Below, piece after piece: positions 10,183 to 11,649 of a stretch of 24,000 nt of DNA. The notes beneath the pieces are model-generated. The model was not told the DNA's origin. It ran no database searches and was given only the letters and a program-made list of their open reading frames with translations. Source of the stretch: Methanimicrococcus blatticola (GTDB taxonomy: Archaea > Halobacteriota > Methanosarcinia > Methanosarcinales > Methanosarcinaceae); contig NZ_SNYS01000009.1 in the NCBI RefSeq assembly GCF_004363215.1, forward strand, positions 70,047 through 94,046, given 5' to 3'. The number at the start of each line of letters is the position of its first letter. The first letter of the stretch is position 1. The position numbers and the translations under genes were made by a program.

Positions 10183-11649
10183 ATGGCAAAAATGAAAGAT
10201 GCTGAAATTCAGGCAATGATTCAGGATTTGCCTCTTCCGAAAAACATTTTAAAGACGATGCAGGCGGACGCCGTGTCTGTCGGTGTGACGGAAAAAGAAA
10301 TGCAGGAAATCATTGACCGTGTCATGGTCGGCTACAAATTGTCTCAAATTGAAGCTTGTGACGCGGCCGGTGTCGTTGCGGCGCAGTCGATTGGTGAGCC
10401 GGGTACGCAGATGACCATGAGAACTTTCCACTACGCCGGTGTGGCCGAAATTAACGTTACGCTCGGTTTGCCGCGTTTGATTGAAATCGTGGACGCGCGT
10501 AAGATTCCGAGTACGCCGACGATGACGATTTATTTGAAAAATGATTCGGGACTCGTTGACGAAGACGGCAAAGCGGATTATGCGTTCGATCGTGATAAAG
10601 CGCAATCGGTTGCCTGGGATATTGAAGCGACCAAGATTGACCATATTGCGTCCGTTACAACCGACTTGGCTCAGATGAAGATCGTTATCAATGTCAATGA
10701 AAAAGCAATGAACAAAAGACATATGGTCTTCATGGAAATTGCCGAGAAATTCAAAGAAAAGATTCCGGACGCAATGGTTGAAGTCAGCGAAGAAAACTTC
10801 CAGATTGACTTGACCCCGAAGGATCAGCGTTACCGTGACTTGCTCCAGCTGACGAAGAAAATCAATGACATCACTTTAAAAGGTATTGAAGATATCAAAC
10901 GTGTCGTTCTCAGAAAAGGAAGCGACACTGAAGAGTACGTTTTGTACACGGAAGGTTCCGCGTTGAAGGATATTATTTCCATCCCCGGCGTTGACATGAC
11001 ACGTACAACCACGAACAATGTCAGTGAAATTTTCTCCGTTTTCGGTATTGAAGCGGCCAGAAACTCAATTATCACTGAAGCTACAAACACGCTTCGTGAA
11101 CAGGGTTTGAATGTTGATATCAGACACATTATGCTTGTGGCTGACTTGATGACCAGCGACGGTGAAGTCAAACAGATCGGTCGTCACGGTATTTCAGGCG
11201 AGAAGGCCAGTGTTTTCGCAAGAGCCGCTTTCGAAGTGACTGTCAATCACTTGCTTGACGCAGGTATGCGCGGCAACGTTGACGAGCTTCAGGGTGTGAC
11301 TGAAAACGTTATCGTCGGCCAGCCGATTAAAATGGGTACCGGTGACATTCGTTTGATTGCCAGAACCATTGACTCTGATAACCCGAACCTTGTCAAATCC
11401 GTTGAAAAGAAGACCGTCAGAACCAGATCTCAAAAGAACGCCGCTGACAAAGCGGAACTTGCCGGATCTGTTCAGGTTTCAAAAGATGATTTAATCAGCG
11501 TCGAAACAGCCGATGAGGTTGACGACGATGAAGAATGGGATGACAACGTCAGCATGGACATCGAAGAAACGGTGACAGAAGTCGTTGAAGAAGAACCCAA
11601 GAAAAGAAGAGGAAGACCGCCCAAAGCAAAGGCGGAAGATGAAGAGTAA
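10183..11649 (+). CDS. rpoA2: DNA-directed RNA polymerase subunit A'' (Rpo1C), with a C-terminal extension of about 94 aa ending in an AT-hook-like motif
   Basis: 488 aa. Trigger-loop and jaw blocks are present: [38 protein letters not shown] and [23 protein letters not shown] lies inside the rpoA1 3' end, 7 nt before the ATG. Confidence 0.93.

What the first reader, a model, noticed from the sequence alone, without database searches (positions are those of the whole stretch)
11365..11649. RNA polymerase A'' carries a 94-aa C-terminal tail ending in an AT-hook-like [11 protein letters not shown]
The conserved A'' core ends around ...[16 protein letters not shown]. Archaeal A'' subunits I know of stop shortly after this point, at about 380-400 aa in total. 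Here another 94 residues follow. They comprise a basic stretch ([10 protein letters not shown]), a strongly acidic tract ([29 protein letters not shown]), and then [17 protein letters not shown] (AT-hook-like core at 11599-11631). R-G-R-P flanked by Lys/Arg is the AT-hook minor-groove DNA-binding consensus known from HMGA-type proteins. A DNA-binding hook tethered to the RNAP jaw/downstream-DNA side by an acidic linker would be an unusual built-in accessory.
Basis: partly seen in the sequence, partly recalled or inferred. Interest (0 to 1): 0.6.

Follow-up and report, generated by a model that had tools for sequence, protein, structure and literature searches.

The report
AT-hook tail on archaeal RNA polymerase
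In arthropod-gut methanogens (Methanimicrococcus and Methanolapillus), RNA polymerase subunit A'' carries a conserved, floppy 85-105-residue C-terminal tail that ends in a single AT-hook DNA-binding motif, and I found no description of such a built-in hook on an archaeal polymerase.

Summary
ORF 10183-11649 is rpoA2. The family model ends at residue 393, and 94 more residues follow (11365-11646): a basic segment, an acidic linker (net charge -17), then [12 protein letters not shown] and an acidic cap.

The tail is not a frameshift artefact or random filler.
- It is present in every Methanimicrococcus A'' recovered, in all three Methanolapillus species and in one further metagenomic lineage (27 distinct sequences).
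- 26 of the 27 keep R-G-R-P. The linker varies freely in length and sequence.
- Synonymous codon changes leave the hook residues unchanged.

It was not found in 165 other Methanosarcinaceae genomes, about 70 other named archaeal genomes, or 149 other library representatives.

AlphaFold2 predicts the tail to be disordered. Pfam AT_hook is the only family it matches. The window's copy scores just under the cut-off, and two orthologues score above it.

The A'' C-terminus lies at the base of the Rpo4/7 stalk and aligns with yeast Rpb1 residue 1444, where the linker to the CTD starts. It is not at the jaw.

My best reading is an RNAP-tethered minor-groove reader of AT-rich DNA near promoters. This function is inferred, not shown. 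The closest analogues are WhiB7, CarD and Rpo13.

The parts
10183..11649 (+). rpoA2 (RNAP subunit A''/Rpo1C), 488 aa including the tail
   Evidence: TIGR02389 at 1e-151 and 505 bits, above the cut-off. Pfam RNA_pol_Rpb1_5. It follows rpoH, rpoB'', rpoB' and rpoA'.
10183..11364 (+). conserved A'' core, aa 1-394
   Evidence: The family model ends at aa 393. PDB A'' chains align up to aa 392-395.
11365..11418 (+). proximal tail segment, aa 395-412, mildly basic
   Evidence: Mean identity is 0.62 within Methanimicrococcus. Methanolapillus and P0023 have a different Lys-rich stretch here.
11419..11466 (+). block 1, [16 protein letters not shown], aa 413-428
   Evidence: The first 12 residues are invariant in all 23 Methanimicrococcus sequences. 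10 of 14 codon columns show synonymous variation with no amino-acid change. AF2 gives a weak helix at 415-427 with pLDDT under 50. The block is absent from Methanolapillus and P0023.
11467..11595 (+). acidic linker, aa 429-471, net charge about -17
   Evidence: Mean identity is 0.25 within the genus and 0.13 between genera, and length varies. AF2 predicts disorder.
11596..11631 (+). AT-hook, [12 protein letters not shown], aa 472-483
   Evidence: K-K-x-R-G-R-x-x-K is invariant and the Pro after R-G-R is present in 15 of the 16 aligned sequences from two genera. Pfam PF02178 is the only family hit, in 9 of 10 orthologue ends.
11608..11619 (+). R-G-R-P core, aa 476-479
   Evidence: Present in 26 of 27 distinct tail sequences; the exception is RGRA in Ca. 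M. odontotermitis. Arg codons differ between genera (AGA against CGC) while the residue is kept.
11632..11646 (+). acidic cap AEDEE, aa 484-488
   Evidence: Present in Methanimicrococcus and P0023 and absent in Methanolapillus. Its codons form the 5' arm of a hairpin.
11636..11730 (+). hairpin across the stop codon (11636-11662) followed by oligo-T tracts; probable transcription terminator
   Evidence: Terminator-like site. T-rich array at 11659-11721. The hairpin recurs in 9 Methanimicrococcus loci.
3391..10180 (+). upstream RNAP genes: rpoH (3391-3633), rpoB'' (3973-5694), rpoB' (5691-7529), rpoA' (7532-10180)
   Evidence: Pfam Rpb2 and Rpb1 domains. The rpoH identification rests only on an 80-aa ORF and its position before rpoB''.

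Best explanation
The tail is a genuine, selectively maintained, intrinsically disordered C-terminal extension of the catalytic subunit A''. It leaves the enzyme at the base of the Rpo4/7 stalk, the point where eukaryotic Rpb1 continues into its linker and CTD. At its far end, after an acidic spacer of about 40-60 residues, it carries one canonical AT-hook.

[quoted passage not shown] This would give the polymerase its own weak, sequence-biased DNA anchor on a long leash. The most likely target is AT-rich promoter-proximal DNA upstream of, or around, the TBP/TFB-bound region, where the anchor would help recruitment or stabilise the initiation complex. The acidic spacer probably folds back on the basic hook and basic proximal segment when no DNA is bound, damping non-specific binding.

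Shown here: the tail exists, it is restricted to one clade, the hook is under purifying selection, and the tail is predicted to be disordered. The exit point rests on the literature and an alignment. Inferred: DNA binding, AT preference, the promoter role and auto-inhibition by the spacer.
For: - The tail is real and conserved. It is found in 8 of 10 Methanimicrococcus genomes; the two without a hit lack any A'' match and are 57% and 66% complete. It is found in 3 of 3 Methanolapillus genomes, in about 20 metagenomic proteins and in a third lineage, P0023.
- Selection acts on the hook and not on the spacer. Mean identity of the hook segment is 0.80 within the genus and 0.74 between genera, against 0.25 and 0.13 for the linker. 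K-K-x-R-G-R-x-x-K is almost the only invariant feature of the tail across the two aligned genera. Synonymous codon changes preserve the residues.
- All three tail types share the order Lys/Arg-rich, then acidic, then P-K-K-[KR]-R-G-R-P-x-K at or near the C-terminus, even though their proximal parts are unrelated.
- The motif fits the published definition of an AT-hook: a GRP core flanked by K/R with proximal Pro, and the Reeves consensus TPKRPRGRPKK (PMC11354804). Pfam AT_hook is the only family hit.
- AF2 gives pLDDT under 50 for residues 399-488, as expected for AT-hook regions.
- The tail begins at the stalk base and the CTD-linker position. About 90 disordered residues could reach promoter DNA from there.
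- There is precedent that one RNAP-tethered AT-hook is enough. The WhiB7 hook, held on sigmaA region 4, sits in an A-tract minor groove upstream of the -35 element (PMC10245118). The acidic-plus-RGRP domain of CarD maximises promoter activity (PMC4374960).
- The hook is the only canonical one in this genome, so it is a specific feature of the polymerase and not a general habit of the proteome.
Against: - No binding data exist, and the tools cannot model protein-DNA complexes.
- The window's own hook scores below Pfam's gathering cut-off (15.8 against 17.4 bits).
- A single hook binds weakly in HMGA-type proteins, which use three or four.
- The genome is 42% G+C, not extremely AT-rich.
- One species, Ca. 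M. odontotermitis, has RGRA in place of RGRP.
- The tail is missing from the two genomes taken here as Ca. Methanofrustulum, which belong to the same intestinal clade. It is therefore dispensable for RNAP function.
- The stalk-base exit is also next to the RNA exit path, so RNA is an equally reachable ligand.
Confidence: 0.55

Rival explanations
1. The tail is a CTD-like recruitment or RNA-handling platform. Because it leaves the enzyme beside the stalk and the RNA exit path, the basic hook (an RG-type motif) and block 1 would bind nascent RNA or dock a transcription or processing factor, not DNA.
For: The tail starts at the position homologous to the start of the Rpb1 linker and CTD, at the stalk base. 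Block 1 is invariant within Methanimicrococcus and has weak helical propensity, as expected for a short docking motif. Some AT-hook variants are reported to differ from canonical DNA hooks (extended AT-hook, PMC11354804).
Against: The element conserved across all three tail types is the canonical hook with immediate K/R flanks and a proximal Pro, not block 1, which is confined to one genus. There are no repeats or heptads. No candidate partner has been identified.
Confidence: 0.2
2. The tail is an electrostatic regulator or nucleoid tether with no sequence reading. The acidic stretch would act as a DNA mimic that occupies or shields the DNA-binding cleft of free RNAP, as region 1.1 of bacterial sigma-70 does. 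The basic ends would give only non-specific DNA or nucleoid affinity, like the Lys-rich tail of Rpo13.
For: The charge layout is strongly polarised: +5 at the hook and -17 in the linker. Methanosarcina-like relatives already carry short, purely acidic tails of 29-39 residues after the core. Other archaeal A'' representatives have acidic or Lys-rich low-complexity tails without GRP. Rpo13 has a Glu-rich N-terminus and a Lys-rich C-terminal tail that binds dsDNA non-specifically with Kd about 2 uM (PMC3479171).
Against: A purely electrostatic role does not explain why exactly R-G-R-P with a flanking Pro is kept in 26 of 27 sequences, when any Lys/Arg-rich stretch would serve.
Confidence: 0.17
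3. The tail is neutral low-complexity filler created when the operon broke downstream of rpoA2, and the GRP is incidental.
For: Long charged tails occur sporadically on other archaeal A'' representatives: 17 of the 100 that could be assessed have 40 or more residues. In this lineage rpoA2 is no longer followed by rpl30e-nusA-rps12. Ca. Methanofrustulum does without the tail.
Against: The hook and block 1 stay unchanged at the amino-acid level despite synonymous divergence, while the neighbouring linker diverges almost completely. The architecture is kept across genera whose genomes share only 76-78% ANI (PMC11362671).
Confidence: 0.06
4. The tail is an assembly or annotation artefact, with a frameshift hiding the true stop.
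For: None found.
Against: The same frame stays open to a hook-bearing end in three complete chromosomes of cultured Methanimicrococcus and Methanolapillus strains and in many independent MAGs and metagenomes, with in-frame length variation. No alternative stop or remnant is present.
Confidence: 0.01

Closest known systems
WhiB7 (Mycobacterium and other actinobacteria): C-terminal AT-hook held on RNAP through sigmaA region 4
   Same: A single RGRP hook is physically tethered to the transcribing enzyme. [quoted passage not shown]
   Different: WhiB7 is a separate, regulated Fe-S protein bound to a sigma factor in bacteria. Here the hook is covalently part of the catalytic subunit of an archaeal polymerase, so it is constitutive, and it sits on a much longer acidic leash.
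Myxococcus xanthus CarD (HMGA-like C-terminal domain)
   Same: An RNAP-binding protein whose intrinsically unfolded C-terminal domain is an acidic segment followed by RGRP hooks. [quoted passage not shown]
   Different: CarD has four hooks, is a separate factor that contacts the beta subunit, and is bacterial. The tail here has one hook and is fused to A''.
Rpo13 of Sulfolobales and Desulfurococcales RNAP
   Same: A lineage-specific archaeal RNAP component with polarised charge, a Glu-rich end and a Lys-rich end. Its disordered basic C-terminal tail binds dsDNA and stabilises the RNAP-DNA complex (PMC3479171 and PMC2675907).
   Different: [quoted passage not shown] Its tail is Lys-rich, non-specific and has no GRP. 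The tail here exits at the stalk base.
Eukaryotic Rpb1 linker plus CTD
   Same: Same attachment point: query residue 392 aligns with yeast Rpb1 residue 1444. Both are long disordered extensions of the largest subunit. By general knowledge of Pol II structures, the Rpb1 linker is also roughly 100 residues.
   Different: There are no heptad repeats or any tandem repeat, no Ser/Pro-rich phospho-code, and no sequence homology. This is an independent, recent, clade-restricted acquisition.
HMGA1/HMGA2 architectural proteins
   Same: A disordered protein with an R-G-R-P hook, flanking K/R and Pro, and an acidic stretch thought to modulate the hooks (PMC11354804; PMC4482583 abstract).
   Different: HMGA proteins are free chromatin proteins with three hooks and a C-terminal acidic tail. 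Here there is one hook, preceded rather than followed by the main acidic stretch.
Bacterial RNAP alpha-CTD and the UP element (from general knowledge, not tested here)
   Same: [quoted passage not shown]
   Different: The alpha-CTD is a folded helical domain present in two copies. There is no homology.

Membership tests
Archaeal RNAP subunit A''/Rpo1C (TIGR02389) | Full-length match to the equivalog model above the curated cut-off | tested here: met
   505.1 bits against 420.65, covering model positions 2-366 of 367. PDB A'' chains match at 1e-96 to 3e-103.
Archaeal RNAP subunit A''/Rpo1C (TIGR02389) | Gene placed immediately after rpoA' in the rpoH-B-A cluster | tested here: met
   rpoA' ends at 10180 and rpoA2 starts at 10183. 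rpoB'', rpoB' and an rpoH-like ORF lie upstream.
AT-hook motif (Pfam PF02178; Reeves and Nissen) | G-R-P core preceded by Arg (R-G-R-P) | tested here: met
   R476-G477-R478-P479. Kept in 26 of 27 distinct orthologous tails.
AT-hook motif (Pfam PF02178; Reeves and Nissen) | Lys/Arg on both flanks and a proximal Pro, motif of 10-15 residues | tested here: met
   P-K-K-R before the core and P-K-A-K after it. Definition taken from PMC11354804.
AT-hook motif (Pfam PF02178; Reeves and Nissen) | Score above Pfam's gathering cut-off (17.4 bits) | tested here: inconclusive
   The window's copy scores 13.8-15.9 bits, below the cut-off. Of 10 orthologue ends, 9 hit this family only and 2 exceed the cut-off (19.0 and 19.3); the RGRA variant gives no hit.
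AT-hook motif (Pfam PF02178; Reeves and Nissen) | Lies in an intrinsically disordered segment | tested here: met
   AF2 pLDDT is under 50 for residues 399-488.
AT-hook motif (Pfam PF02178; Reeves and Nissen) | [quoted passage not shown] | not testable with these tools
   None of the tools here models or measures protein-DNA binding. EMSA, NMR or footprinting is needed.
HMGA-like domain (HMGA, CarD) | Several (three or four) AT-hooks in one disordered domain | tested here: not met
   There is only one GRP in the tail. It works like a hook but is not an HMGA-type domain.
HMGA-like domain (HMGA, CarD) | Adjacent strongly acidic segment | tested here: met
   aa 429-471 has net charge about -17.
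Rpb1 CTD | Tandem heptad repeats (YSPTSPS-like) | tested here: not met
   TRF finds no repeat in 11365-11646, and the sequence has no Ser-Pro periodicity.
Rpb1 CTD | Attachment at the C-terminal end of the conserved largest-subunit core | tested here: met
   Query residues 219-392 align with yeast Rpb1 1261-1444.

The most novel reading that the evidence does not exclude
One clade of Archaea has evolved an RNAP-intrinsic promoter-DNA reader. It is a disordered extension at the CTD position of the largest subunit, and its terminal AT-hook recognises A-tracts near promoters. The effect would be an archaeal counterpart of the bacterial alpha-CTD/UP-element or WhiB7 mechanism, built into the catalytic subunit. 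It may compensate for the massive loss of transcription regulators in these gut-adapted, genome-reduced methanogens (43 regulators lost in M. blatticola, PMC9723798).
Probability: 0.35. Interest if true: 0.75.

Novelty: new variant of a known kind. Interest (0 to 1): 0.6.

Why it matters
Archaeal RNAP is generally treated as a Pol II-like core without a C-terminal tail, which finds promoters only through TBP, TFB and TFE.

A conserved disordered extension at the exact CTD attachment point would be two things at once. It would be a natural example of how tails on the largest subunit can arise. It would also be a possible case of direct DNA reading by an archaeal polymerase.

The idea is readily testable. 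The peptide is short. Cultured strains exist (M. blatticola, M. hongohii, M. stummii, M. hacksteinii and three Methanolapillus species). The sister genus Methanosarcina is genetically tractable for grafting or deleting the tail. Nature also supplies controls: an RGRA variant in Ca. M. odontotermitis and tail-less A'' in Ca. Methanofrustulum.

Full-text searches returned no paper describing an AT-hook on an archaeal RNAP subunit, and the two genome papers on this clade do not mention it.

Tried and rejected
- Frameshift or wrong stop: rejected.
- "Such tails are common": partly true but not decisive. Twenty phylum-level candidates with long open frames turned out to be upstream read-through artefacts, with real tails of only 1-32 residues. 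In the library of 1.84 billion representatives, 17 of the 100 A'' ends I could assess have charged tails of 40 or more residues, but none except P0023 has [RK]GRP in the last 60 residues. The other 50 of the 150 representatives did not match my motif regex. For those I checked only for a C-terminal GRP, and found none.
- A general AT-hook habit of the proteome: rejected. The genome has only one canonical hook.
- Compensation for loss of the chromatin protein MC1: rejected. MC1 is present in 40 of 41 relatives, including all tail-bearing genomes.
- A clade-specific acidic tail on B'': rejected. It is present throughout the family.
- ESM Atlas look-alikes of the tail: no usable hit.
- Complex prediction of tail residues 395-432 against this genome's Rpo7 and Rpo4: returned 'no answer', which counts neither for nor against binding.
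- AF2 of A'' alone models several core segments poorly, because they normally pack on other subunits. I used it only for the disorder call on the tail.
- I did not attempt a comparison of promoter A-tract positions. Transcription start sites are unknown, G+C differs between lineages, and the hook has effectively one evolutionary origin, so the comparison would have no statistical power.

Full report
**Observation**

The ORF at 10183-11649 (+) encodes a 488-aa protein that starts 3 nt after rpoA'. It is RNAP subunit A''. TIGR02389 scores 505 bits against a cut-off of 420.65 and covers residues 18-393, which are model positions 2-366 of 367. Pfam finds Rpb1 domain 5.

Residues 395-488 (nt 11365-11646, stop at 11647-11649) lie beyond every model. 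The tail has five parts:
- a mildly basic proximal segment (aa 395-412);
- block 1, [16 protein letters not shown] (aa 413-428);
- an acidic linker (aa 429-471, net charge about -17);
- [12 protein letters not shown] (aa 472-483, with the R-G-R-P core at nt 11608-11619);
- an acidic cap, AEDEE.

All solved archaeal A'' chains are 391-397 aa and end a few residues after the aligned position 392-395.

**Organism and context**

The closest named proteins are from Methanimicrococcus in the Methanosarcinaceae. The assembly is 1.78 Mb in 13 contigs with 42% G+C. This matches the published description of M. blatticola PA (PMC9723798); the species assignment is an inference.

The gene sits in the usual rpoH, rpoB'', rpoB', rpoA', rpoA'' cluster. 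It is followed by a hairpin, oligo-T tracts and convergent genes.

**Distribution**

The tail is present in every Methanimicrococcus genome that yielded an A'', which is 8 of 10. The two without a hit are 57% and 66% complete and lack any A'' match. It is also present in all three Methanolapillus species and in about 20 metagenomic proteins.

A profile search of 1.84 billion cluster representatives found one further lineage, P0023. It comes from a JGI metagenome, is 72% identical overall, and has a tail ending FPKKKRGRPSKVKVEEEE.

The tail was not found in:
- the other 165 Methanosarcinaceae genomes searched;
- about 70 other named archaeal genomes from Thermoplasmatota, Archaeoglobi, Methanoperedens, Halobacteria and other groups;
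- the listed phylum-level matches that I checked.

Two genomes in the same intestinal clade have only 9 and 4 residues after the core, and no remnant of a tail lies downstream. These are Ca. Methanofrustulum fimipullorum and a rumen MAG that groups with it.

Methanosarcina-like relatives carry short, purely acidic tails of 29-39 residues. This looks like a precursor state.

The published 53-marker tree places Methanolapillus as sister to Methanofrustulum within a monophyletic intestinal clade (PMC11362671). That topology implies one gain and one loss. My A''-core tree instead groups the two hook-bearing genera (support 100/98), with long-branched Methanofrustulum outside them. That topology needs only one gain. 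Either way a single origin is the simplest reading.

**Conservation and selection**

In a 16-sequence alignment spanning the two genera, almost the only invariant tail columns are K-K-x-R-G-R-x-x-K; the flanking Pro residues are nearly invariant. Mean identity by segment is as follows.

| Segment | Within genus | Between genera |
|---|---|---|
| Hook | 0.80 | 0.74 |
| Linker | 0.25 | 0.13 |
| Block 1 | 0.88 | 0.19 (genus-specific) |

Codon alignments show synonymous divergence with unchanged residues. The Arg codons of R-G-R are AGA in Methanimicrococcus and CGC in Methanolapillus. In block 1, 10 of 14 codon columns vary synonymously with no replacement.

Of 27 distinct tails, 26 have R-G-R-P. 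Ca. M. odontotermitis has R-G-R-A. This pattern indicates purifying selection on the hook. It rules out both neutral filler and an assembly artefact.

**Is it an AT-hook?**

By sequence it meets the published definition: a GRP core, basic flanks and a proximal Pro, with the consensus TPKRPRGRPKK (PMC11354804). Pfam AT_hook is the only family that matches the tail end, in 9 of 10 orthologues.

The window's copy scores 15.8 bits against a gathering cut-off of 17.4. Two orthologues pass at 19.0 and 19.3. Formal membership is therefore borderline for this copy.

AF2, run with a 28-sequence alignment, gives pLDDT under 50 for residues 399-488. The only secondary structure there is a low-confidence helix over block 1.

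It is the only canonical hook in the genome. There are 9 [RK]GRP strings in 3732 ORFs, and none of the others sits in a basic, disordered context. DNA binding itself cannot be tested with these tools.

**Geometry**

A'' does contain the jaw, but its C-terminus returns to the stalk side. In the Sulfolobus enzyme the Rpo4/7 stalk contacts "Rpo6 and the C-terminus of Rpo1C" (PMC2675907).

Residue 392 here aligns with yeast Rpb1 residue 1444. From established Pol II structures, that is where the ordered core gives way to the linker leading to the CTD.

The tail is therefore a CTD-positioned extension. With about 90 disordered residues it could reach upstream promoter DNA, the transcription bubble region or nascent RNA. 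Which of these it reaches is unknown.

**Mechanism and rivals**

Best-supported reading (confidence about 0.55): the R-G-R core inserts into A-tract minor grooves and gives RNAP its own weak, AT-biased anchor near promoters. The acidic spacer acts both as a leash and as an intramolecular damper.

Precedents show that a single tethered hook can be enough. The WhiB7 hook, held on sigmaA region 4, binds an A-tract upstream of the -35 element (PMC10245118). An acidic-plus-RGRP domain on an RNAP-binding protein boosts promoter activity in CarD (PMC4374960).

Rivals:
- an RNA-binding or factor-docking CTD-like platform (0.2);
- a purely electrostatic DNA mimic or nucleoid tether, as with Rpo13 or sigma region 1.1 (0.17);
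- neutral filler (0.06);
- an artefact (0.01).

The main weaknesses of the preferred reading are the absence of any binding data, the single hook, the moderate genomic AT content, and the fact that the tail is dispensable in Methanofrustulum.

**Novelty**

AT-hooks, RNAP-tethered hooks and lineage-specific DNA-binding RNAP add-ons are all known. Covalent fusion of an AT-hook to the catalytic subunit of an archaeal RNAP, at the CTD position, was not found in full-text searches. The two genome papers on this clade do not mention it. I rate it a new variant of a known kind, with interest 0.6.

**Limits**

The phylum survey listed only 150 of 438 matches. In the representative library, proteins more than 50% identical to each other are represented by a single sequence, so close relatives with or without a tail may be hidden. 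Fifty representatives could not be parsed for tail length. The complex prediction for the proximal tail against Rpo4/7 gave no verdict.

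Noticed in passing
window 11636-11662 and L063-L070: A hairpin straddles the rpoA2 stop codon. The codons for the final E-D-E-E form its 5' arm, and oligo-T tracts follow. It recurs in all 9 Methanimicrococcus loci with some compensating changes. Conservation of the acidic cap may therefore be partly an RNA or terminator constraint. In Methanolapillus the hairpin lies downstream of the stop and there is no cap.
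   Followed up: partly
window 11650-11820; G000 C1:313240-314336: The usual rpoA2-rpl30e-nusA-rps12 linkage is broken. In this genome those three genes lie on another contig, whereas a Methanosarcina-like relative (L011) keeps rpl30e, nusA and rps12 directly after rpoA2. The break at the 3' end of rpoA2 may be connected with the origin of the tail.
   Followed up: partly
window about 5400-5691 (C-terminus of rpoB''): B'' also ends in an acidic low-complexity tail of about 70-100 residues beyond its last Pfam domain. Open frames of 551-570 aa in other Methanosarcinaceae show that this is family-wide and not specific to the hook-bearing clade.
   Followed up: partly
P0112, P0166, P0169, P0081 (library representatives): Other unnamed archaeal A'' proteins carry long Lys-rich, histone-H1-like repeat tails or acidic tails at the same C-terminal position. 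This suggests that charged, possibly DNA-binding tails have been added to Rpo1C several times independently. Their taxa are unknown.
   Followed up: partly
L011, L057, L058 (genus g8, Methanosarcina-like): These have short acidic A'' tails of 29-39 residues, variable in length and rich in E/A repeats, with no basic end. They may represent the precursor state of the longer tail.
   Followed up: partly
L068 / P0017 (Ca. Methanimicrococcus odontotermitis): This is a natural hook variant, KKKRGRASKSK, with Pro replaced by Ala. It has a shorter, less acidic linker and gives no Pfam AT_hook hit. It would be a useful natural control.
   Followed up: no
window about 11530-11545 and the aligned columns of A2: There is a semi-conserved aromatic residue within the acidic linker, in the pattern [DE]-[WFY]-[DE]-[DE]-N in Methanimicrococcus; Phe or Tyr in an acidic context also occurs in Methanolapillus and P0023. 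It resembles acidic-hydrophobic interaction motifs. Its function is unknown.
   Followed up: no
L074, L078 (Ca. Methanofrustulum fimipullorum and a rumen MAG): The tail-less A'' cores of these two genomes sit on very long branches (0.62 and 0.85 substitutions per site against a median of 0.09), so A'' evolves fast in these mammal-associated lineages.
   Followed up: no
window 20740-24000 (+), open at the 3' end: A large protein of more than 1086 aa with five Flg_new (Listeria-Bacteroides repeat) domains. This fits the adhesin-like gene gains reported for M. blatticola (PMC9723798).
   Followed up: no
window 16145-16924, 17099-18598, 18816-20291 (+) and 15028-15609 (-): Four sizeable ORFs (259, 499, 491 and 193 aa) with no Pfam match at E <= 0.001.
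   Followed up: no
window 3114-3190 (+): tRNA-Lys (UUU) in the long AT-rich intergenic region upstream of the rpoH-like ORF.
   Followed up: no
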